Part shown: piece after piece, positions 9,821-31,354 of the stretch | Position numbering within the stretch: position 1 is the first letter of the stretch | Layout of the letters: the number at the start of each line of letters is the position of its first letter | IMG/VR virus record: IMGVR_UViG_2802429225_000007 | Location: 1 to 31,354 of that record | Reading direction: 5' to 3' (one strand) | Length of the DNA stretch: 31,354 nucleotides | From: a virus | Lineage: Duplodnaviria; Heunggongvirae; Uroviricota; Caudoviricetes | Notes under the pieces: generated by a model | The model's input: only the letters and a program-made list of their open reading frames with translations | Told to the model about the DNA's origin: nothing | Database searches by the model: none | Translations under genes and position numbers: made by a program

Positions 9821-10972
9821 ATGGCATGGACTGGATTTGGAGGTCAATGGAATAACGGTGTGCATTCTGGTGGTGATGATTCTGGCAGTATAGGCGGTGG
9901 AGGCATAAAACTCGACGGCAAAGGGAATCCTGTAGGTACTCGTGCGCCGACAGCCGAGGAGATCGCGTCACAATGGAATAGTTTTGGCGGTAGTCAGATT
10001 AAACCCAGTGATGTATCGAACATCAGGCCGGATGGTGGCGGTACTTATCAGGCTAACATTGCAGGTAATTACCATGTTGTAAGTTCTCAGGGTGCGAATA
10101 CCCCATTTGCTTCGGAACGTAGCAACGTTGCGGCAGGTTTTAGTGGCGGTGTGGGGCCAGCGCCTGGCGGGAGTGCTAACAATAGTGCGCCCAGCAATCC
10201 AAAGGCTGAGGCAGAGGCAAAGAAATGGATTGAAACAGTCAAGGCTGTTCGGGCTGGTAATATCCCCTACGGTTATGTTCTTAACGACGGCAAGGTAGGC
10301 GTAAACGTGCCTCAATATGTTGAACGCCGCAAAGGTCGTGGCGACACATATACCGTTCGGGGTAAAGATTTGTTTGTTGTTTCGCCTGAACTGACAAAAG
10401 CGTATCAGGACGGTCTTGCGGAACGTGCTGAGATTCTGGACGCCGTAAAATTTACGTCTGATTTCTATAAAGACCTTGCAGGTAAATTTGGACAGCATAA
10501 CGCGAACATCGCAAAGGAACTGGCGGAGGCTGCAAAAGGCAAGAAGATTCGTAACAGCAGGGATGCACTGGCGGCGGTGGATAAATTTAATAACCGACTG
10601 AGTAAAAAGTATGGTGCCAAAGACCTTGAGGCAGTTGCCAGGGCTTTGGAATCGGTTAACCGGGATGCAATGGCGAAGAATTTGTCTAAATTTGGTAAGG
10701 CATTTGGTGTCGCAAGTTATGCTGTAGATGCTTACAATGTTCTTTACGTTGAATTTCCGAAAGCTATTCGTACTAAAAACTATCGCCCAATGCTTGTTAA
10801 GTTGGAGGCAATTCTTCTTGGTGCTGATGCAGGTATTGTTGCTGCGTGGGCATTTAGTGCGCTTCTGGCAACGCCGATGGGTATTCTGACGTTTGCGCTT
10901 ATAATGGCATTGCTAAGTGCGATGGTTAATGAAAAACGCATTGAGGAACTGAATAAGTTCTTAGGGATTTAA
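9821..10972 (+). CDS. pore-forming colicin-like bacteriocin (channel-forming colicin C-terminal domain)
   Basis: Gly-rich N-terminus; C-terminal domain aligns by eye with colicin E1-type channel domain (AKGKKIRN, AIRTKNYRPMLVKLE, hydrophobic hairpin, ...KFLGI terminus); AAGGA RBS. Confidence 0.8.
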   Translation: MAWTGFGGQWNNGVHSGGDDSGSIGGGGIKLDGKGNPVGTRAPTAEEIASQWNSFGGSQIKPSDVSNIRPDGGGTYQANIAGNYHVVSSQGANTPFASERSNVAAGFSGGVGPAPGGSANNSAPSNPKAEAEAKKWIETVKAVRAGNIPYGYVLNDGKVGVNVPQYVERRKGRGDTYTVRGKDLFVVSPELTKAYQDGLAERAEILDAVKFTSDFYKDLAGKFGQHNANIAKELAEAAKGKKIRNSRDALAAVDKFNNRLSKKYGAKDLEAVARALESVNRDAMAKNLSKFGKAFGVASYAVDAYNVLYVEFPKAIRTKNYRPMLVKLEAILLGADAGIVAAWAFSALLATPMGILTFALIMALLSAMVNEKRIEELNKFLGI

Positions 10973-10999: not shown

Positions 11000-11344
11000 T
11001 CATGTGGCCTTTTTTGACAATTGAATATAAATAATAAACAGAAGGCCAATGGGAATTGAAAAAATAAAAAGCATACCGTGGTATAAACCCATTACCCCGC
11101 TTTTTAAACAGGTGTCTGTCCACGCCCCTGTTATCCATGATTCGTATGTTGTATATTTGAGAACGATATTTTCTACAGCTTTCTTTGCATATGGGAACAA
11201 GAAACAGCTAATAACAGCAAGCATAACCAAATACTCCCATATCCATAAATCACCTTCAGCTATGGCCTGATGCCACCTGAAAACTGTCATGGCGAGAAAT
11301 ACGCATCCGTACAGGATGTTGCTCAAATAATATCGAAATGTCAT
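11000..11344 (-). CDS. pore-forming-colicin immunity protein (E1/Ia-type), putative
   Basis: 114-aa protein with ~3 TM segments encoded convergently just downstream of the toxin gene, the canonical arrangement; AT-rich. Confidence 0.6.
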   Translation of the reverse strand: MTFRYYLSNILYGCVFLAMTVFRWHQAIAEGDLWIWEYLVMLAVISCFLFPYAKKAVENIVLKYTTYESWITGAWTDTCLKSGVMGLYHGMLFIFSIPIGLLFIIYIQLSKKAT

Positions 11345-11751: not shown

Positions 11752-11912
11752 ATGTGTTAGGCACGGCCACATTCGCATTATGGTGGGCTGTGTGGGGGCT
11801 TCTGCGGAAGCGCCGGGTTCACTTAGCCGGTTACGCCAACCCTGCACAGTTCACCACCAGATGATTGGCGTCGCTGGTGGTGATGAAAAAAACACTAAGT
11901 GAGGCCACTGCG

Positions 11913-12701
11913 ATGACAGTCCAAATATCTGCGGAATCCCTTTCTCCGCTACATCATAACCAACTTCCCGTCATCACTACTGAATTGCTTGCCAGTTTGT
12001 ATGGCACGGAAGTAAATGGTATCCAGCAAAACTTCAAGCGCAACATCGCCAGATTTGTCGTAGGAAAGCATTTTTTTAAGCTGGAAGGTAATGAATTACG
12101 CGACTTCAAAAACAGACTGACAGATAGTCAGTCAGTTGCTAAACATACCCGATCCCTCATTCTCTGGACAGAACGCGGCGCAGCTCGCCATGCCAAAATG
12201 CTGGAAACAGAACAGGCCTGGGAAGTTTTCGAAAAGCTGGAAGATTGTTATTTTAGCCAGCGTCCAGAGAGGCGGAGTACAACCACCGATGACCGCACCC
12301 CCTTACGTGATGCCGTTAATATGCTGGTCGGCAAGAAAGGCATGATGTATCCCGATGCTTATACCATGATTCATCAACGCTTCGCCGTCTCTCACATAGA
12401 ACAACTGTCACAGGCGCAAATGTTAGAGGCGATTGAATACATCCACTGCCTGCTGCTCGATGAAAATCAGCCAACTATTCCGGATTTTTCTTTTATCACC
12501 ACTATCAAAAATGGAAAAGTGACCAGGATGCGCCATGTTGCCAAAGGCGAACATCTGATGACTTTTGACGCTTTCAAAGAGATCGCTGAGCGGGCAGGGT
12601 ATCTGGTGATCCACAGCGACAATCTGCGAAGTATGACACTGGATAAATTGATGCTAATGGGGAAAAAGTCGGCTGTATCCTTTGCTGATTCAGCATTTTG
12701 A
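11913..12701 (+). CDS. phage antirepressor (ORF6N-domain, Ant-like), putative
   Basis: GAGG RBS before ATG 11913 (track start 11865 is probably upstream of the true start); N-terminal region resembles antirepressor ORF6N domain. Confidence 0.5.
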   Translation: MTVQISAESLSPLHHNQLPVITTELLASLYGTEVNGIQQNFKRNIARFVVGKHFFKLEGNELRDFKNRLTDSQSVAKHTRSLILWTERGAARHAKMLETEQAWEVFEKLEDCYFSQRPERRSTTTDDRTPLRDAVNMLVGKKGMMYPDAYTMIHQRFAVSHIEQLSQAQMLEAIEYIHCLLLDENQPTIPDFSFITTIKNGKVTRMRHVAKGEHLMTFDAFKEIAERAGYLVIHSDNLRSMTLDKLMLMGKKSAVSFADSAF

Positions 12702-12879: not shown

Positions 12880-13803
12880 TTATTGGTTTCTGAGGAACGC
12901 GATTCTTGAAAGGGTCATTTGCGTCTGGCAGTCGACCATTTTCTTGACTTCAGCATCTGTTCCCTGCATTGAAACTTTACCGCACATTGCGTCCTTCGTT
13001 TTGATCCACTGGCGCTGAGAAGGCAGCAACTCTTTTTTCTTCGCCGGGGTTAACTTGCTCCAGACGGTACTCAAATCAGAGTCAGCATTCGCAAATGCCA
13101 TTCGGGACTGATCAAGGCTTTCAGATTTTTGCGGCTGAAGTTGTGCCTGTCTCTCTTTTTGCTTCTCCGCCTCATACCTGGCCTGTTCCTGTGCCCTGAG
13201 TTGCACCTGTTGTTCCGCTTCAATTTGGCTCTGTTGGGCATCCTTAGCCTGCTGGATTTTCTGCTGCTCAACGATCGGGGTGATAATGGAAAGCGATGTC
13301 AGTAAAGCGGCGCCCACTGATATCGGATTATCAGTAGAGGTTTTTACAAAAACGTTTTTCTGATCGTCGGTCGCCTGCACGGTGTAGGTGATACGTTTTG
13401 AAAAGGCGTTTGCGTTGTTCTCCAAAAACAGGTTTTCCATTTGCTTGTCGAGATTACGATTAAAATTCTTTCTGTAAGCATCTGAAAGCTGGACGTACTC
13501 GTTCGCAGGTAGAGTCATCGTCACGGTCCCTTCACAAGTTTTCATTGTGCTGCCCGTGTCACTTGATGTTGTGGAGATTTCAGAGACGGCTAGTTTGATC
13601 TTGTCCAGTGTGCTTCGTTTGGTCTGATTAGTGACATCAGGGTATTTATCGACCTGTTCAGATAGTCCTTCATAAGCAGATTTTTTTAATAAATCCATAA
13701 GCGCTGACTGGGTTATTTCCGAAGAACAACCGATCACATCTTTTTTGTTATCACAGCCTGTAAGGGCAATGGCGAGTAAGAGTACTGAGTATTTTAATCT
13801 CAT
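12880..13803 (-). CDS. lipoprotein with Gln/Glu-rich coiled-coil segment (cargo/moron)
   Basis: signal peptide with lipobox LTGC (MRLKYSVLLLAIALTGC); 307 aa. Confidence 0.65.
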   Translation of the reverse strand: MRLKYSVLLLAIALTGCDNKKDVIGCSSEITQSALMDLLKKSAYEGLSEQVDKYPDVTNQTKRSTLDKIKLAVSEISTTSSDTGSTMKTCEGTVTMTLPANEYVQLSDAYRKNFNRNLDKQMENLFLENNANAFSKRITYTVQATDDQKNVFVKTSTDNPISVGAALLTSLSIITPIVEQQKIQQAKDAQQSQIEAEQQVQLRAQEQARYEAEKQKERQAQLQPQKSESLDQSRMAFANADSDLSTVWSKLTPAKKKELLPSQRQWIKTKDAMCGKVSMQGTDAEVKKMVDCQTQMTLSRIAFLRNQ

Positions 13804-14256
13804 GAATTCCCTTTAGAGTAAGGATTGGTTTTTAAGACGCGGTCTGTAATCAGTTCCGAGAGCTACAGTAAACAACGCTGAGCACTGAACGCATCACAGG
13901 CAAGGTAAAAGGTGATATCGGCAAAGGCTGTGAAACCTTTAATTCAACGGATGGGAACGGTATGCACAGGATCCTGTAACGACGCTCCCAAAACCGGAAA
14001 CCTGTAAGGCATGTTTTCGCTGCTGAACTTAATATACGAACCTGCACTATCATGAACATATTTTATATCGTTATAGCCCGAGTGATTGTGCCCGGCAATA
14101 GATAGTGTCCTGGAGGAACTATTTCTACTGTAAAAGGAAGATATTTAATTTCGGTGTGGGATTATTCCCTGTTGTTAATAACCATGGCTGTATATGGCAC
14201 TGAGCAGGCATTGGCTTTTTTAAAATTTAATTGCGTTATTAATATCACTTAATTTT

Positions 14257-14817
14257 TTATTTTAAAGTACAGCCTGCCCGAAAGGCACTGCTAATTTCAA
14301 CATATTCCGCTCTGGCCGCACCTCTAAGTTTCTGAGACTCACGTTCAAAACTCGCCAAATCTTCCTTACATTTTGCCGAAGTAGACTGGAATCCTTTCCC
14401 GCACATCTGAAATGTGACTGTCGGATCCGCAAATCGGGTACGCTGGGTGTAAGCCTGGCAAACAGCGGATGCCCTCGCTTGTTTTTGTCGTGGGCTTAAC
14501 GGGCGTGCTGGTGTGGCCTGTTCTGCCTTCTCCATTTTCAGGTGGTAGCAGCTTAAATTACGAGAGGCGATCACCTTTTTAATAGCTTGGGCGCGGCGAT
14601 AATTTTCATTAAATTCAGGATGAGATGATGGATTAAGGTTGAGCAATGGCTCTATATTATCTTCTGCCTGGCAAAGCTGTGAATCGGTGTACTGCGCAAG
14701 TTTTGCCGCCTCGATTGCAGCCGGATCTGGTTGTGAATTTTTTTGGGTATGGCTTACACATCCGGACAGCGTAAATCCAGCGGTCAGTGCTAAGATGATT
14801 TTTGATATTCCGTTCAT
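14257..14817 (-). CDS. lipoprotein (cargo/moron)
   Basis: signal peptide with lipobox LSGC (MNGISKIILALTAGFTLSGC); 186 aa. Confidence 0.65.
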   Translation of the reverse strand: MNGISKIILALTAGFTLSGCVSHTQKNSQPDPAAIEAAKLAQYTDSQLCQAEDNIEPLLNLNPSSHPEFNENYRRAQAIKKVIASRNLSCYHLKMEKAEQATPARPLSPRQKQARASAVCQAYTQRTRFADPTVTFQMCGKGFQSTSAKCKEDLASFERESQKLRGAARAEYVEISSAFRAGCTLK

Positions 14818-14948
14818 TTTCCATTCCTGTTTCGATGTTTTGGTGGTGCACTTTCCCCACTCGGATAAGATTATGCATTCGGATTCGAGTGATGAGGCAA
14901 CGCCATATAGGCGATGGCAGCCAGCACGATGGTGATTAAAATATTTAA

Positions 14949-16184
14949 TCAGAATTTCCGTTCTTTCCAGCGTTTAACCAACGCGGCCATGTTCAGCGGC
15001 CATAATTTAGGCTCAATCACTTTGCCTTCAAACATCGCGCCGAGCTCAATACCTGGGGCAAAATGTACGGTCATTGTTTCAGGGTTGACGGCCATCAGCT
15101 CTGCGTCTAGTAAGTCGTGTATCGTTGGAGTCAACAACAGGCCATTATCAGCGCTAAAATTGCCTGAGGTAGCTGGCTCAATGTGCGCCGCTTGCAATCG
15201 TTCGCCGTTCTGCCAGCCAGTCACCGCGCAACGGCCAGCAAAATTATTCCATACCCATTCAACAAACTGCATATGCGCCGTCGCGTCGCGCTGCTCAACG
15301 ATGCGCTGCGCGGTTCGGGTACTGTGGAGTTTGACAGGTTGGCCAAGTGCGGGCGCGGGTTTCTCTTCCTCCACGACGACCACTACTTCCTGCGACATGA
15401 TGATTCGATCATCGGCTACCAGTTCCGGAACAACGTCGGCCAGCTTCTCGGCTTCTCGGATGATTTGCTTTTCTTCCTGCTCATCCAGGTACCGCTGCAC
15501 CAGTTCAATGGTCGTGGTGGCTTCATGCTGGTGTTTGTGGATATAAAGCTCAACATCACGACGCTGGCTGGCTGGAATGTGTTTTGCCAGAAAATCCTGT
15601 AGGACGCGATTATCCAGCTTTGTCGTAACTTTTGATGTCATGCTCACAGAATCATACCGTTTCGGTGTTTCCATCTGCGTTGATTGCAGGCCTGGTAATT
15701 CGGTGTTGATTTGAGCGGAAACCTTGCGCGGGATGATTGTCGGCGTAAATGCTGGCGTGCTGGCCTGGGACGTGCCACGGCGACGGGCATTCTCCCAAAG
15801 GGCTTCTGTTTCAGGGTTTTTGCGTGCGCCTGGCTTTTGCATAGGCATAGTGCGAATCAGCGCTTCCCAGCCCATATTGACCTTCTGTTTGGCCTCGCGG
15901 CGTTTATCGGCCAGCGTAGGTTTTGATGGTCGTTTTTTGGAGAGCGCTTTCTCTGGTTTTAACTTGATGCCGCGCGATAAACCATTTATCAGCGTTGGAT
16001 GCACTGATAAGGCTTTGGCCAATTGCAAACCGTTTAAATTGCTGCCATCTGTATAAGCGTACATAAACAAATCCGCCCAGCCATCATGTTGAGGGGTCAT
16101 ACCCACGCTGGTTAAGGCTGCGCGAATCTCTTTTTTGCGAGCTTTGTCCAAGTTAAATTTTTGGGTTTTATTTCGCTTAGTCAT
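14949..16184 (-). CDS. HNH-endonuclease-domain protein with basic N-terminal region
   Basis: C-terminal CAVTGW...AAHIEP...NGLLLTPTIHDLLD resembles an HNH nuclease motif; 411 aa. Confidence 0.55.
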   Translation of the reverse strand: MTKRNKTQKFNLDKARKKEIRAALTSVGMTPQHDGWADLFMYAYTDGSNLNGLQLAKALSVHPTLINGLSRGIKLKPEKALSKKRPSKPTLADKRREAKQKVNMGWEALIRTMPMQKPGARKNPETEALWENARRRGTSQASTPAFTPTIIPRKVSAQINTELPGLQSTQMETPKRYDSVSMTSKVTTKLDNRVLQDFLAKHIPASQRRDVELYIHKHQHEATTTIELVQRYLDEQEEKQIIREAEKLADVVPELVADDRIIMSQEVVVVVEEEKPAPALGQPVKLHSTRTAQRIVEQRDATAHMQFVEWVWNNFAGRCAVTGWQNGERLQAAHIEPATSGNFSADNGLLLTPTIHDLLDAELMAVNPETMTVHFAPGIELGAMFEGKVIEPKLWPLNMAALVKRWKERKF

Positions 16185-16295
16185 TTCAGTTCAGCACACT
16201 AATAATGGTAACCGTGACCGCGGCAAACACGATCCCCGAAATATGCATTACTGCAGTATATTGGCTACGATCTAAAATCCAGTCTCATTCCGAAA

Positions 16296-17120
<825 letters not shown>

Positions 17121-25870: not shown

Positions 25871-25952
25871 AGAGCATTTCTCTTAATTGAATGTTCGAGT
25901 TAAAAGCATAGACGACACCTGTGCACCATGAGAATACAGTAGGATTTAATTA

Positions 25953-26556
25953 TATGAGCAAAGCGGACTGGGAGGCCATCGAGACGGCATACCGGGCCGG
26001 AGTGATGTCCCTTCGAGAAATAGCATCACAAAACGGTATTAGCGAAGGCGCTATTCGTAAGCGGGCCAAGCGTGACGACTGGTCGCGTGACCTGAATGCG
26101 AAGGTGAAAGAACGCGCTGACGATCTGGTACGCAAAGCAGAGGTACGCAAACAGGTACGCAGCGAAGTTACTTTTAACGAACGCGTACTCATCGAGGCTA
26201 CCGCCGAGATAATCGCCAATGTTCGCATGGAACATCGCGGCGACATCAAGCGAGCCAGGCAGATAACCAATGCCCTGTTTGATGAGCTTGGTGCTGAGGG
26301 CGCAGACGTAGCTGCACTGGAGAAGCTCGGAGAGTTGATGCTTGACTCTGACGATAAAGGCCAGGACAAACTCAATGAGATCTACCGCAAGGTTATCAGC
26401 ATGCCGGAGCGTGTTAAGTCGCTAAAAGCACTGAGCGACGCGCTGAAGAACCTGGTCGGACTTGAACGCCAGGCCTACGATATCGACGGGCCAGAAGGCG
26501 ACAACTCTGTTAAGCAACTGTCTGACCTGATGGATTCACTGTCTCAGGGGGCGTAA
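25953..26556 (+). CDS. terminase small subunit
   Basis: HTH-like N-terminus (MSLREIASQNGISEGAIRKRAKRDDW); AGGA RBS before ATG 25953; ATGA overlap with the large-subunit gene. Confidence 0.6.
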
Positions 26557-27940
26557 TGAAACCTGAGCACCTTAAGTTGCTGTCCGATAAAAACTGGCGG
26601 CTGAACAATCTCTACTGGATCACCGACAAAGAGGGTAAGCCGACGCGGTTCAGGATGACACCTGAGCAGCGGGAATACTTCGAGGGGATCCACACCCGCA
26701 ACATCATTCTTAAGGCTCGTCAGCTCGGATTCACGACCGAGGTGTGCATCATCCAGCTCGATGCAGCGCTGTTCGAGTCGGCAAAGTGCGCGCTTATTGC
26801 CCACACGCTGAATGACGCAAAACGCCTGTTCCGTGAAAAGGTGAAGTACGCATACGACAAGCTGCCAGCAGAGATAACGGCGGCCAACCCGGCGAGCAAT
26901 GATTCTTCCGGAGAGCTCGTCTTTAAGAAGGGCGGATCACTCTACGTCAGTACGTCATTTCGTGGCGGTACGCTGCGTTACCTGCACGTTTCCGAGTTCG
27001 GGAAGATATGCGCCAAGTATCCTGACAAAGCCCGTGAAATTGTCACTGGTGCGTTTGAGGCAGTGTCAACCGGATGCTTTGCGACTATTGAGAGCACGGC
27101 GGAAGGGCGGGCGGGGTATTTCTTCGATTACTGCCAGACGGCAGAGAAGGCGCTGCTGCAGGGCAAAGCACAGTCTCCGCTGGACTGGAAGTTTTTCTTC
27201 TTCCCCTGGTGGAAGAACCCACAGTACGCAATCGACCCGGTGGAATCGCTGCCGGTGCGCCTGCTTGAGTATTTCGCTGAAATGGAGGCGAAGCACGGTG
27301 TAGTCGTCAACGAACGTCAGCAAGCTTGGTACTACGCCAAGCAATTCCGCTGGCTCTATACTAACAAGCGTATCGGACATATCCCGGATAACTCACACCT
27401 GCCGGTACACACATTCTGGGATATAGGCGTAGGTGACTCCACGGCTATCTGGTTCGTTCGCGAGGTTGGTGAAGAGTTCCACATCATCGACTACTACGAA
27501 AACTCTGGCGAGGGGCTGAGGCACTAAAGGTGCTAAAAGACCGAGGCTACGAGTATGGCGAGCATTGGGGGCCGCACGATATCGAGAACCGCGAGTTTGC
27601 TGCTGATGCGAAGTCACGTAAGGAGCTGGCGCGCGAGGGTTACGAAATAGACGGTCAGAACTATTCCCTTGAATTCAACGTAGTGCCAAAAACCAGCGTC
27701 GACACTGGTATTGAATCAGTTCGTGAAGTGCTCCTATTTTGCATTTTCGACGAAGAGAAGTGTGCTGTTGGCATATCTCACCTTGAAGGTTACCGCAAAG
27801 AGTGGGACGACAAGCGAGGCTGCTGGAAAGATAAACCGCTTCATGACTTTACATCTCACGGCGCTGATGGCTTTCGTTACTTTGCCGTCGCAAAAAATAA
27901 CAAGATTGCTCATCAGGGCATGCTGGTCCGTTCCCGCTAA
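26556..27940 (+). CDS. terminase large subunit, reading frame interrupted (-1) at a G4 run 27512-27515
   Basis: Walker-A-like KARQLGFTTE; track ORFs 26556-27527 and 27530-27940 are contiguous parts; one extra G restores ...EGAEALKVLKDRGYEYGEHW... Confidence 0.7.
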
Positions 27941-27954
27941 TTTCTGGAGTACCC

Positions 27955-29372
27955 ATGAACAAAGAACAACTGGCGGCAACGCAGCGTCAGGCGCGTTCAA
28001 TGGAATGTGCACGCGCAAACAACCTCGACTTCCGTTTTTACGGAACCAGTAACACTAAGCGCAAAACCCTGTACAGAGAGTTCGGTTACCCCGAAGTATT
28101 AGGGTTTGATGATTTTTATCGCGCATATAAGCGAAATGCAGTTGCGCGTGCTGCTGTCCGTCGTGTCATTGATAACTGTTGGCAGGACAACCCCGAAATA
28201 TTTGAGGGGGGGGGGAGAAAGAGGACGGCGCGAAAAAGGACAGCGCGTGGGATAAGCGCGTTAATAAATTATTTAAAAAGTTGTGGAAACAAATTAAAGG
28301 CGCGGATCGTCGAAACCTCGTAGGCAATTGTTCCGCGCTGCTGATTCAACTAAAAGATGGTGGTAAGTGGCATGCTCCTGTTAATACCACAACGGTAAGG
28401 TCGTTGCAGGAAAAGGCGCTTGTGCGTCTTATCCCAGTATGGGAAGCGCAGCTGGACGTTTCTCAGTGGAATAACGACCCGGACAGTGACACGTTCGGGA
28501 TGCCGAAAATGTACCAGTTCACGGAAATGCCTGTCGGCAGTGAGAGTGGCAGGCCAGGACGCATCATTGATGTTCACCCGGATCGCGTTTTTATTCTGGC
28601 TGAGGGCGCTGATGATGACGGTATGGATGGTGAGTCCATGCTGGAGGCGGGATTCAATAAATTATTGGATATTGAAAAAATCTCCGGTGGCAGCGCCGAA
28701 GGCTTTCTGAAGAATGCCAGCCGCCAGCTTAATTTCAATTTCAGCGCCAAAACCAACTTTTCCCAACTTGCCCGCGCCCTTGGCGTCTCTGAGTCTGAAT
28801 TATCTGATGCTATGGATGAACAGACCCGCAGACTAAATAACAACACGGATAGCGCAGTGATGATGCAAGAGGGTGATACCAGCGTCCTTTCCGTCGCCGC
28901 AGCAGATCCAGAGCCAACATGGCGAACGGCGCTTAATGAGTTTTGCGCCACAATCCCGGTTCCCGTGAAAATTCTTATCGGTATGCAGACAGGTGAACGC
29001 GCCAGTACCGAGGACATGAAAGACTGGGCGAAAACCGGTAATGCACGCCGCGCAGGTTTTCTGACAGATGTCATTGAGGGGGTTGTGCGGTGGTTTATCC
29101 ATCTCGAAATAATTCCCGCCCCCAGCGAAGAAGAGATCACGATCCACTGGAGTGACCTGCTTGCTCCTGGGCAGGTCGAAAAAATCGACAACATGAACAA
29201 AATGGCAGACGTGGCAGTGAAAACCACTAACGCGTTTGGTCGTGCGGCAATAACTGAAAATGAAATTCGTTCTGTTGGTGAGTTCCCGCCACTGAAAGAA
29301 TTTGAAGAGGAAAATGATGACGACCAGCCAAAGCAGACTGATCCTCTGGTCGGTTCAGAGGGAGACGCGTAA
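27955..29372 (+). CDS. portal protein, putative, reading frame interrupted at a G10 run 28206-28215
   Basis: track ORFs 27955-28323 and 28281-29372 are parts of one gene; G11 would give ...EGGGEKEDGAKKDSAWDKRVNKLFKKLWKQ...; position after terminase. Confidence 0.55.
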
Positions 29373-30333
29373 AAGTCCGGTAATACCACGGTCACGCACC
29401 GATCCTACCTTGTCACGAAATGCCGTGAAGAGAATGGCTGGCGATATTGAGAATCGCTATTTCGCCATAAAAAACGCACTGAAAAACCAGCTTGATATGC
29501 TCCTGCAAGGGCATTCTGCTGCGACAAACAGCCAACCATGGCACTTCCTTTGTCATGACGTGGATGATTCTTCAATGCTGTACCGGGTTAACGCGAGCAC
29601 CTACGTTTGCGACATGTCTGGACGGCAGTTGGCAGGCCTGTTACAGATTGTGCAGATGATATTGGATGACTATCTACTGGAGGGGGGCTCGCATAATATC
29701 TGGGCGATGTCGTATGTGGTGGCGGAGTTCAAACGTGGAACTCACCAGGCTTACAACAGCCTTTCTCAGCAGTCCTCTGTTTACGCCAGCCAGACGACCT
29801 TTCCGCAGTTGTTAAGTATGCCTGCATATCAAAACCAGATTGCGGCTGCGTATGTTTCAACTTACAGCGACTGGAAGGGCATTGCTGATACGGCGCGTGT
29901 GGATCTCGCCAGTATTATTGCCAACGGCATAGGTCGGGGTGTTAACCCGAGAGACCTGGCTAGTACTATCAGCAAACGTCTTGATGTATCGAAGGCGAAA
30001 GCAAAATCTATTGCCCAGACGGAACAGGTTGGTGCTCTACGCGAAGCACTGTGGAATGAAGCCGACTGGGCGTCGTCAAGGCTTGGCCTGAATACCGGCC
30101 TGTTGTGGTTGTCTACGCTCAAGCCGACGACTCGTGCCTGGCACGCCGGTCGTCACGGTAAGGGCTATACCACTAAAGATGTGAGGGAATTCTACGCTGA
30201 GAACGGAAATCGGTACAACTGCTACTGTAGTCAGATACCGGTACTGCTCAATGACGACGGCAGTATCTTCAATGAAGGACTGACAGATAAGTTGACAACT
30301 GAACGCAAGCAGTGGAAACATGATTCTAATTAG
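29302..30333 (+). CDS. head morphogenesis protein (Mu F / SPP1 gp7-like), putative
   Basis: 343-aa ORF following the portal gene; alternative starts at 29314/29317. Confidence 0.5.
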   Translation: MKRKMMTTSQSRLILWSVQRETRKSPVIPRSRTDPTLSRNAVKRMAGDIENRYFAIKNALKNQLDMLLQGHSAATNSQPWHFLCHDVDDSSMLYRVNASTYVCDMSGRQLAGLLQIVQMILDDYLLEGGSHNIWAMSYVVAEFKRGTHQAYNSLSQQSSVYASQTTFPQLLSMPAYQNQIAAAYVSTYSDWKGIADTARVDLASIIANGIGRGVNPRDLASTISKRLDVSKAKAKSIAQTEQVGALREALWNEADWASSRLGLNTGLLWLSTLKPTTRAWHAGRHGKGYTTKDVREFYAENGNRYNCYCSQIPVLLNDDGSIFNEGLTDKLTTERKQWKHDSN

Positions 30334-30955: not shown

Positions 30956-31354
30956 ATGAAACGCAACCGCGTTAACGTGCTGACGGTTATCAACTCCGCT
31001 TCAAATATCACAACTGAAACCATCGACGGACGCGAGCACATTGTCGTGCACGGCGTCGTGCCTATCGTTGACGATATTGTGATGAATCGGCGTTTTTATC
31101 CGTCAGCCGAAATTCAGAAATCCTATAACACTCTCGAACGTAACCCCATGCCACTGGATCACCCGGTGATTGATGGGGAAAACGTATCTGCCAGCGATCC
31201 GCGCGCCGTGAATAACTATCACGTAGGGGCGTGGTTTCAGAATGCTCGCCATGAAAACGGACGCGTCATCGGAGATATGTACGTTGATCGCCGTTATGCG
31301 GAGAACAGCGAGAAGGGTAAGCGCCTGGTTGTGTCAACGACGGATGAAAAGTGA
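30956..31354 (+). CDS. phage head-module protein (possibly protease/scaffold-related)
   Basis: AAAGAGGAC RBS before ATG 30956 (track start 30926 probably too early); stop at window end; function by position only. Confidence 0.35.
   Translation: MKRNRVNVLTVINSASNITTETIDGREHIVVHGVVPIVDDIVMNRRFYPSAEIQKSYNTLERNPMPLDHPVIDGENVSASDPRAVNNYHVGAWFQNARHENGRVIGDMYVDRRYAENSEKGKRLVVSTTDEK

What the first reader, a model, noticed from the sequence alone, without database searches (positions are those of the whole stretch)
27955..29372. Portal gene interrupted at a poly-G(10) tract
Seen: a run of 10 G at 28206-28215 separates two overlapping frames of one gene; 11 G would restore a single ORF. Long poly-G tracts are both error hotspots and genuine slipped-strand phase-variation sites, so this is either artefact or a switchable head gene.
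Basis: seen in the sequence. Interest (0 to 1): 0.5.

Follow-up and report, generated by a model that had tools for sequence, protein, structure and literature searches.

The report
Prophage portal gene frameshifted at poly-G
A prophage of a non-coli Escherichia has its portal (head-entry) gene knocked out of frame by a real, unstable run of ten G's that reads eleven G's (intact gene) in one near-identical relative; it is an ordinary slippage hot spot in a prophage that is already decaying in this strain.

Summary
G10 lies at 28206-28215 and is the only G/C run of 8 or more in the window. It splits a 472-aa portal gene (27955-29372) into a 122-aa ORF and a downstream -1-frame part, and one extra G restores the gene. 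It is not a sequencing artefact: the exact 10-G product occurs on 9 public contigs from at least 6 samples, including a complete chromosome. The exact 11-G intact portal occurs on one contig that differs from a 10-G copy by 1 SNP in 20.9 kb. The tract is new to this lineage. A 93% relative reads G5-A-G2 in frame, one A>G makes G8, and all other listed homologues have a single Gly there. A small SNP tree nests the 11-G copy among 10-G copies, so tract length has changed very recently. This fits a slipped-strand hot spot with OFF as the usual state. Nothing shows adaptive switching or programmed recoding: there is no stimulatory structure and no conservation of the tract. In this window the prophage also carries a 4-bp deletion in terL and an IS21-family insertion in a head gene, so here the portal frameshift is one of three lesions. 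Interest is low to moderate.

The parts
27955..29372 (+). Portal gene, out of frame in this window; it encodes 472 aa if the tract has 11 G
   Evidence: The repaired ORF matches PHROG 146 portal (8e-104), Pfam PF06381 (3e-20) and PDB 9yin_A Sf11 portal (5e-90). The exact 472-aa protein exists in public data as P0001. Gene order is terS-terL-portal-MuF.
28206..28215 (+). Homopolymeric G10 tract, the frameshift site
   Evidence: It reads 10 G in L002-L005, L009, L019 and L020, and 11 G in L001.
27955..28323 (+). ORF1: the 5' portal fragment of 122 aa (87 native residues plus a 35-aa frameshifted Arg/Lys-rich tail), ending at TAG 28321-28323
   Evidence: The exact protein is WP_236942891.1, 'hypothetical protein [Escherichia]', found on 9 contigs.
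28206..29372 (+). The 3' part of the portal in the -1 frame, open from the first G of the tract. Annotators call it from TTG 28281 (363 aa, WP_236942892.1) or from GTG 28422 (316 aa, P0016).
28203..28205 (+). TGA that closes the downstream frame immediately 5' of the tract. Frame restoration is therefore only possible between 28206 and 28323.
   Evidence: Three-frame translation.
26556..27940 (+). Large terminase gene, split into 323 aa plus 136 aa by a 4-bp deletion (TATG) at about 27527. This second lesion is specific to this strain.
   Evidence: Alignment with L003, where TerL is one 462-aa ORF. The same split is seen in L004 and L020 only.
31332..31354 (+). End of an IS21-family (IS100-like) element inserted in the head-region gene that starts at 30956 (390 aa in sister prophages). 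This is the third lesion.
   Evidence: The window diverges from L001-L003 and L005 after 31331. The 29-nt end sequence occurs in dozens of copies in Y. pestis NCTC5923 next to an IstB gene (PF01695, 7.7e-112).
25921..26556 (+). Small terminase gene (context)
   Evidence: PHROG 1206, 2.7e-90.
29302..30333 (+). Mu F-like head morphogenesis gene (context)
   Evidence: PF04233, 4.7e-10; PHROG 758, 6.6e-118.

Best explanation
The G10 run is a genuine, lineage-specific, slippage-prone homopolymer inside the portal gene of a lambdoid prophage. The prophage is integrated next to the leuZ-cysT-glyW tRNA cluster of a non-coli Escherichia.

Origin (inferred): a single A>G change turned an ancestral in-frame G5-A-G2 (Glu-Gly-Glu-Glu) into G8. 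Replication slippage then lengthened the run.

Effect: at 10 G the reading frame is lost after residue 87. Only a 122-aa N-terminal fragment can be made from the start codon, so no dodecameric portal forms and no DNA-filled heads are made (inferred from the established role of portals). At 11 G the frame is restored with one extra glycine, in a variable acidic loop.

Tract length has changed at least once among almost identical prophages (shown). OFF (10 G) is the common state and ON (11 G) is a rare one.

In this window's strain the frameshift is one of three inactivating lesions, together with the terL 4-bp deletion and the IS21-family insertion. Here it is best described as part of prophage decay at a mutational hot spot, not as a regulatory device.
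For: The tract and frames are as described. The portal identity holds across the tract.

Reproducibility: the exact 10-G ORF1 product is on 9 contigs, including the complete chromosome CP188181.1. The 11-G intact product is on 1 contig. Products expected for 7, 9, 12 or 13 G are absent from the collection. Tract lengths were read directly in the DNA of 8 loci.

Recent change: L001 (11 G) differs from L002 (10 G) by 1 SNP plus the G indel over 20,952 bp. The SNP pattern nests L001 inside 10-G copies: (L003,(L019,(L002,L001))).

Origin: the 93% relative L011 reads GAG GGG GAG GAG AAA at the homologous place. In a 25-sequence alignment the 11-G protein has a one-residue insertion relative to all relatives. 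Of the homologues in which the flanking motif could be located, every one except P0001 has a single Gly followed by D/E/S/N/A at this position.

Loop location: the site aligns to a gapped acidic linker of the Sf11 portal. In the AlphaFold model it is coil between strand 81-84 and helix 98-123, with pLDDT below 50 at residues 90-93.

Other lesions in this strain: terL 4-bp deletion and IS21-family end.

Mutational behaviour of such tracts: in C. jejuni, G8 mutates mainly by insertion; lengthening to G11 raised mutability 10-fold and shifted the pattern to deletions (PMC3401435). This fits growth from G8 and settling near G10.
Against: Between the same two genomes, the packaging/head/tail module carrying G10 differs by only 2 SNPs in 13.4 kb. 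The adjacent chromosome differs by 16 SNPs in 7.8 kb (Fisher p=7e-6). The late module was therefore shared more recently than the host flank. This is unexpected for a prophage whose portal has long been dead, and it suggests recent mobility.

In most 10-G carriers all other late genes in the roughly 20 kb examined are intact.

No read-level data could be inspected, so heterogeneity within a sample is unknown. The single 11-G observation rests on one short-read assembly. The tree rests on single SNPs.
Confidence: 0.68

Rival explanations
1. Adaptive contingency locus. The poly-G tract is used as a reversible ON/OFF switch for virion production. Most lysogens are OFF: induction still lyses the cell and could release the prophage-encoded colicin, but makes no infectious particles. 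A minority of ON cells keeps the phage transmissible.
For: Both OFF (10 G) and ON (11 G) states exist among near-identical prophages, and the ON copy is nested among OFF copies. The late module is far less diverged than the host flank, suggesting recent spread although OFF dominates. The prophage carries a pore-forming colicin and an E1-type immunity pair whose release could depend on phage lysis. Homopolymer contingency loci have been reported in coliphages T2 and T4 across functional gene classes (bioRxiv 10.1101/2025.10.21.683753).
Against: The tract is absent from every other homologue examined, including a 93% relative, so there is no evidence of selection to keep it. The portal is a late gene that is silent in the lysogen, so OFF has no obvious benefit to the cell carrying it. 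Only one ON observation exists. The window strain has accumulated further lesions, as expected for neutral decay.
Confidence: 0.12
2. Leaky recoding. The 10-G allele is not null. A low level of -1 ribosomal slippage of tRNA-Gly on G GGG GGG (or, less likely, RNA polymerase stuttering) yields a full-length portal identical to the 11-G product. This would be enough for the 12 copies needed per virion.
For: The heptamer G GGG GGG is in the correct register twice (28206-28212 and 28209-28215). A -1 shift enters exactly the downstream frame and gives the same protein as 11 G (inference). There is a precedent: low-level compensatory frameshifting on a G run in herpesvirus thymidine kinase (PMC5009743). 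The other late genes are intact in most 10-G carriers, and the late module has very low divergence.
Against: No stimulatory structure lies at the usual 5-9 nt. The only local hairpin starts about 27 nt downstream, and the fold z-score is -1.9. The arrangement is not conserved in any homologue. In E. coli transcriptomes all homopolymer insertions were in A/T runs, and G/C runs were judged not slippage-prone (PMC5574713). The zero-frame stop lies 105 nt downstream of the tract.
Confidence: 0.1
3. Sequencing or assembly artefact. The true tract is 11 G everywhere and 10 G is a homopolymer undercall.
For: Long G runs are error-prone on several platforms, and read data could not be inspected.
Against: The same 10-G length appears in assemblies from different projects and pipelines: Logan assemblies of 4 runs, an ENA metagenome, two NCBI drafts and a complete chromosome. 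The same pipeline (Logan) called 11 G in another sample.
Confidence: 0.05

Closest known systems
Sf11-type phage portal proteins (Pfam PF06381 Phage_portal_3, formerly DUF1073; PDB 9yin 'Sf11 portal')
   Same: The sequence matches along its length (E=5e-90 to 9yin_A; PHROG 146, 8e-104). The gene sits between terL and a Mu F-like gene.
   Different: Here the gene is interrupted after codon 87 by a homopolymer frameshift. The in-frame allele has an extra Gly in a variable acidic linker.
Poly-G/C simple-sequence contingency loci of Campylobacter jejuni (PMC3401435) and of its phages
   Same: An intragenic G run of 8-11 whose length decides ON or OFF. Length differs between close relatives. The reported insertion bias at G8 and deletion bias at G11 would explain settling at G10.
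   Different: The host is an enterobacterium, presumably with mismatch repair (my own knowledge, not tested). This is one isolated tract, not a conserved set. The gene is an essential virion part, not a surface or receptor-binding function. No switching rate has been measured.
Phage contingency loci in T2/T4 and BASEL coliphages (bioRxiv 10.1101/2025.10.21.683753)
   Same: Homopolymer SSRs inside phage ORFs give reversible frameshifts by polymerase slippage, and they are reported in every functional class.
   Different: Those are mostly runs of 6 or more in lytic phages, with minority variants inside a population. Here a 10-G OFF allele is the consensus state of an integrated prophage in most hosts.
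Compensatory low-level frameshifting on G runs (herpesvirus thymidine kinase; review PMC5009743), and transcriptional-slippage rescue of interrupted genes (C. rodentium tssM, PMC4256274)
   Same: A one-base indel in a homopolymer could be partly bypassed during expression.
   Different: No expression data exist here. The bacterial transcriptional examples use A/T runs, and G/C runs were not slippage-prone in E. coli.
Ordinary prophage decay (cryptic lambdoid prophages)
   Same: Frameshifts and IS insertions have accumulated in late genes. This strain has three lesions.
   Different: The first lesion sits in a reversible hot spot, and it has been reversed (or never occurred) in one sampled copy.

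Membership tests
Phage portal protein (PF06381 / Sf11-like) | Sequence match to portal family models along the protein's length and above curated thresholds | tested here: met
   PF06381 scores 72.5 bits against a cut-off of 33.8 (residues 56-421). PHROG 146 gives 8e-104 (residues 16-464). PDB 9yin_A Sf11 portal gives 5e-90.
Phage portal protein (PF06381 / Sf11-like) | Position in the packaging module (terS-terL-portal-head morphogenesis) | tested here: met
Phage portal protein (PF06381 / Sf11-like) | Forms a dodecameric ring at one capsid vertex | not testable with these tools
   The monomer model has only a mean pLDDT of 61. No assembly was modelled.
SSR-mediated phase-variable (contingency) locus | Homopolymer of 7 or more inside the ORF whose length sets the reading frame | tested here: met
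   G10 at 28206-28215. 11 G is in frame and 10 G is out of frame.
SSR-mediated phase-variable (contingency) locus | Tract-length polymorphism, with both ON and OFF alleles, among otherwise near-identical genomes | tested here: met
   10 G on 9 contigs and 11 G on 1 contig. L001 and L002 differ by 1 SNP in 20.9 kb.
SSR-mediated phase-variable (contingency) locus | High-frequency reversible switching within a clonal population | not testable with these tools
   This needs read-level or amplicon data or fluctuation assays.
SSR-mediated phase-variable (contingency) locus | Tract maintained by selection (conserved in related lineages) | tested here: not met
   The 93% relative has G5-A-G2. Every other homologue in which the flanking motif could be located has a single Gly codon there.
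Programmed -1 ribosomal frameshift | X XXY YYZ slippery heptamer in the correct register leading into the downstream frame | tested here: met
   G GGG GGG at 28206-28212 and 28209-28215. The downstream frame is -1.
Programmed -1 ribosomal frameshift | Stimulatory hairpin or pseudoknot about 5-9 nt downstream (or an upstream SD-like element) | tested here: not met
   The only stable local hairpin begins about 27 nt after the tract. The fold z-score is -1.9.
Programmed -1 ribosomal frameshift | Two-ORF arrangement conserved among homologues | tested here: not met
   All relatives encode the portal as one ORF without a tract.
Transcriptional slippage site | Run of about 9 or more A or T, the type used by bacterial RNA polymerase | tested here: not met
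   The run is G. In E. coli, G/C runs showed no transcriptional insertions (PMC5574713).
Pseudogene in a decaying prophage | ORF disrupted relative to intact close homologues, with further inactivating lesions in the same element | tested here: met
   Portal frameshift, terL 4-bp deletion and IS21-family insertion in this strain. Other carriers have only the portal frameshift.

The most novel reading that the evidence does not exclude
The out-of-frame 10-G allele is the working state of a still-mobile temperate phage. Either a minority of 11-G cells or a low level of -1 ribosomal slippage on G GGG GGG supplies enough portal for occasional infectious particles, while most induced cells only lyse and could release the prophage's colicin. 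This would be a homopolymer-throttled essential virion gene in an enterobacterial prophage. It would explain why the late module carrying G10 is about 14-fold less diverged than the flanking chromosome.
Probability: 0.12. Interest if true: 0.6.

Novelty: new member of a known kind. Interest (0 to 1): 0.3.

Why it matters
Practically, the result shows that this split portal is real biology and not an assembly error. NCBI's two separate proteins (WP_236942891.1 'hypothetical' and WP_236942892.1 'anti-CBASS Acb1 family') are the two halves of one frameshifted portal gene.

Biologically, it documents the birth of a hypermutable tract: G5-A-G2 became G8, then G10/G11. It also gives a natural OFF/ON pair in an essential virion gene of an Escherichia prophage. 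This is a convenient system for measuring homopolymer switching and possible leaky decoding.

If the OFF allele turned out to be compatible with spread, it would add a new way in which temperate phages tune virion output. As it stands, it is a well-documented but ordinary example of a homopolymer frameshift during prophage decay.

Tried and rejected
- Megablast of the portal region against complete E. coli genomes and against the phage collection gave no match. The host flank is only 92.5% identical to E. coli, so the host is a non-coli Escherichia.
- Exact-pattern scans for the tract with a variable number of G's in genome contigs, viral contigs and metagenome contigs found nothing. All sister copies came from exact-protein look-ups instead.
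- L006 looked like a contig break near the tract, but its first 23 nt are an Illumina adapter, so it is uninformative.
- A dN/dS test of whether the late genes stayed under selection was abandoned. The 41 SNPs between the two clades are clustered in the nin/Q/lysis region and only 2 lie in the 13.4-kb late module, so there is no power.
- RNA folding downstream of the tract gave no frameshift stimulator.
- The AlphaFold model from a 25-sequence alignment was poor (mean pLDDT 61). It was used only to note that the tract lies in coil, and no fold search was run on it.
- NCBIfam gave no useful hit for the portal.
- One literature search for E. coli G-run frameshift rates gave nothing directly usable.

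Full report
**1. The observation**

Positions 28206-28215 are ten consecutive G. This is the only G or C run of 8 or more in the 31,354-bp window. Dinucleotide-preserving shuffles give 0.01 such runs per window.

An ATG at 27955, preceded by GGAG, opens a 122-codon ORF that ends at TAG 28321-28323. The frame one base behind it is closed by TGA at 28203-28205 and is then open from the first G of the tract to 29372. Adding one G fuses the two parts into a 472-aa ORF.

**2. What the gene is**

The repaired protein matches several portal references:
- PHROG 146 'portal protein': E=8e-104, residues 16-464.
- Pfam PF06381 Phage_portal_3: 72.5 bits against a cut-off of 33.8.
- The solved Sf11 portal, PDB 9yin_A: E=5e-90 for the single sequence and 2.7e-128 for a profile.

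The gene lies in the canonical order:
- small terminase, 25921-26556;
- large terminase, 26556-27940;
- portal;
- Mu F-like head morphogenesis gene, 29302-30333.

The whole window is a lambdoid prophage. It carries a RecE-like gene, a DnaB-type helicase, a Q antiterminator, holins and an endolysin. Sister copies are integrated beside tRNA-Leu(taa)-tRNA-Cys-tRNA-Gly, next to pgsA-uvrC-uvrY-sdiA. That flank is 92.5% identical to E. coli, and NCBI labels the ORF products 'MULTISPECIES [Escherichia]'. The host is therefore a non-coli Escherichia.

**3. Is 10 G real?**

Exact-sequence look-ups gave the following.
- The 122-aa product specific for 10 G is WP_236942891.1 and lies on 9 contigs. These include the complete chromosome CP188181.1 (GCA_049959075.1), drafts GCA_002965345.1 and GCA_900499915.1, Logan assemblies of SRR3987709, SRR27761645 and SRR18551723, and an ENA metagenome.
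- The intact 472-aa product specific for 11 G (P0001) lies on one contig, from ERR11019294.
- Products expected for 7, 9, 12 or 13 G are absent from the collection.
- No 8-G or 14-G protein sits in the relevant 90% clusters.

I read the tract directly in the fetched DNA. It is 11 G in L001, and 10 G in L002-L005, L009, L019 and L020.

The same length appears across different projects and assemblers, and the same pipeline called 11 G elsewhere. This makes an artefact unlikely.

The window itself is 100% identical to the SRR3987709 contig. It shares its peculiarities with GCA_002965345.1.

**4. How the tract arose**

The closest distinct relative is P0002/L011, of the E. marmotae type, with 93% protein identity. 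At the homologous place it reads TTT GAG GGG GAG GAG AAA, which is G5-A-G2 in frame, within otherwise nearly identical flanking DNA. One A>G transition would give G8, still in frame. The window lineage has G10 or G11.

In a 25-sequence alignment the 11-G protein carries a one-residue insertion (EGGGEK against E-GEEK) relative to every relative. Of the homologues in which the flanking motif could be located, every one except P0001 has a single Gly followed by D, E, S, N or A.

The site aligns with a gapped acidic linker of the Sf11 portal. In a low-confidence model (mean pLDDT 61) it is coil between strand 81-84 and helix 98-123. An extra glycine is therefore plausibly tolerated.

The tract is thus a recent accident of one phage lineage, not a conserved feature of the family.

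**5. Evidence that its length changes**

The sister prophages fall into two clades. They differ by about 41 SNPs in 20 kb, almost all in the nin/Q/lysis region.
- Clade B: L003, L005 and the window. All have 10 G.
- Clade A: CP188181.1 (L019, 10 G), SRR27761645 (L002, 10 G) and ERR11019294 (L001, 11 G).

L001 and L002 differ by one SNP plus the G indel over 20,952 bp. They share a derived base that L019 and clade B lack. The tree is therefore (B[10],(L019[10],(L002[10],L001[11]))).

On parsimony the sampled ancestor had 10 G and L001 regained the frame by a +1 slip. The alternative is three independent 11-to-10 losses. Either way the tract has changed on a time scale of 1-3 SNPs per 21 kb, which is what a slippage hot spot predicts.

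Measured behaviour of poly-G tracts in C. jejuni is consistent with growth from G8 and settling near G10. There, G8 mutates mostly by insertion, while G11 is ten-fold more mutable and mutates mostly by deletion (PMC3401435). That organism differs from Escherichia in repair capacity (my own knowledge).

**6. Consequence**

With 10 G, translation from the start codon yields 87 portal residues plus a 35-residue basic tail. The Pfam domain spans residues 56-421, so it is cut. Portals are required to nucleate proheads and to package DNA (established knowledge). The prophage should therefore still lyse on induction but make no infectious particles (inference).

In this window's strain two further lesions exist.
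- A 4-bp deletion (TATG) splits the large terminase into 323 + 136 aa. The gene is a single 462-aa ORF in L002, L003 and L019.
- After 31331 the head-region gene (390 aa in sisters) runs into the end of an IS21-family, IS100-like element. Its 29-nt end sequence occurs dozens of times in Y. pestis NCTC5923 next to an IstB gene (PF01695, 7.7e-112).

Here the portal frameshift is one step in a decaying prophage, and restoring its frame would not restore the phage.

**7. Rivals**

*Programmed recoding.* G GGG GGG is formally a -1 slippery heptamer in the right register, and a -1 slip would give exactly the 11-G protein. Against this:
- There is no stimulatory structure at the usual distance. The only hairpin starts about 27 nt downstream and the fold z-score is -1.9.
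- The arrangement is not conserved in any homologue.
- E. coli RNA polymerase made homopolymer insertions only in A/T runs (PMC5574713).

Low-level, unprogrammed ribosomal slippage on G runs does have a precedent in herpesvirus thymidine kinase (PMC5009743). It cannot be excluded.

*Adaptive phase variation.* This would need conservation of the tract, or a benefit of OFF. Neither is seen.

One observation does not fit a long-dead portal. Between CP188181.1 and the metagenome copy, the 13.4-kb packaging/head/tail module has 2 SNPs, while 7.8 kb of adjacent chromosome has 16 (Fisher p=7e-6). The late module with G10 was therefore shared more recently than the host flank. This could reflect recombination between strains. 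It could also reflect recent phage spread sustained by rare ON variants or by leaky decoding. I leave about 0.2 of probability for these two more interesting readings together.

**8. Comparison with what is known**

The gene is a member of the Sf11-type portal family. The mechanism is that of homopolymer contingency loci, such as the Campylobacter poly-G genes. Homopolymer 'contingency loci' have recently been described in T2, T4 and other coliphages (bioRxiv 10.1101/2025.10.21.683753). It is also the ordinary mechanism of homopolymer frameshifts in decaying prophages.

The site meets the structural criteria of an SSR switch: an in-ORF tract, length polymorphism, and both ON and OFF alleles. 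It fails the conservation criterion, and the switching rate could not be tested.

I file it as a new member of a known kind.

**9. Verdict**

The artefact reading is rejected. 'Switchable' is supported only as mutational instability. In this window the gene is a pseudogene within a multiply damaged prophage. Interest is 0.3.

Noticed in passing
window 9821-10972 (+) and 11000-11344 (-): The prophage carries a 383-aa protein with a C-terminal colicin pore-forming domain (PF01024, 3.5e-45). It is only about 50% identical to plasmid 'colicin-like pore-forming proteins', and only over that domain. A convergent 114-aa ORF matches colicin E1 immunity (PF03526, 1.5e-8). A colicin and immunity pair inside a lambdoid prophage may rely on phage lysis for release.
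   Followed up: partly
window about 27527, within 26556-27940: The large terminase is split into 323 + 136 aa by a 4-bp deletion (TATG) that is not in a repeat tract. It is seen only in this strain (SRR3987709 / GCA_002965345.1). Sister prophages have one 462-aa ORF.
   Followed up: yes
window 31332-31354: The window leaves the prophage sequence and enters the end of an IS21-family (IS100-like) element inserted in a 390-aa head-region gene (start 30956). The short-read contigs end here. The same 29-mer occurs dozens of times in Y. pestis NCTC5923 next to istB.
   Followed up: yes
L003 versus L019 (late module) and L013 versus L014 (host flank): The late module differs by 2 SNPs in 13.4 kb and the chromosomal flank by 16 SNPs in 7.8 kb (p=7e-6). 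The nin/Q/lysis region has 39 clustered SNPs in 6.2 kb, suggesting mosaic recombination and recent sharing of the late module.
   Followed up: partly
window 27955-28323 and 28281-29372 (public annotation): NCBI and UniRef name the two halves separately: WP_236942891.1 'hypothetical protein' and WP_236942892.1 'anti-CBASS protein Acb1 family protein'. Many homologues carry the Acb1 name, although Pfam, PHROGs and PDB 9yin identify the family as portal proteins. This is a likely propagated misnomer.
   Followed up: partly
window 12880-17099 (- strand) and 11865-12701 (+): A block of accessory genes lies between the colicin pair and the nin region. It includes a LprI-domain protein (307 aa), an HNH_2 endonuclease-domain protein (411 aa), a GIY-YIG (LEM-3-like) protein (267 aa) and an ORF6N-domain protein. 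These may be defence or moron cargo.
   Followed up: no
L006 1-23: The Logan contig SRR35966662_171655 starts with an Illumina adapter sequence (TCAGACGTGTGCTCTTCCGATCT) fused to portal DNA 40 nt downstream of the tract. This is an assembly chimera, not a biological junction.
   Followed up: yes
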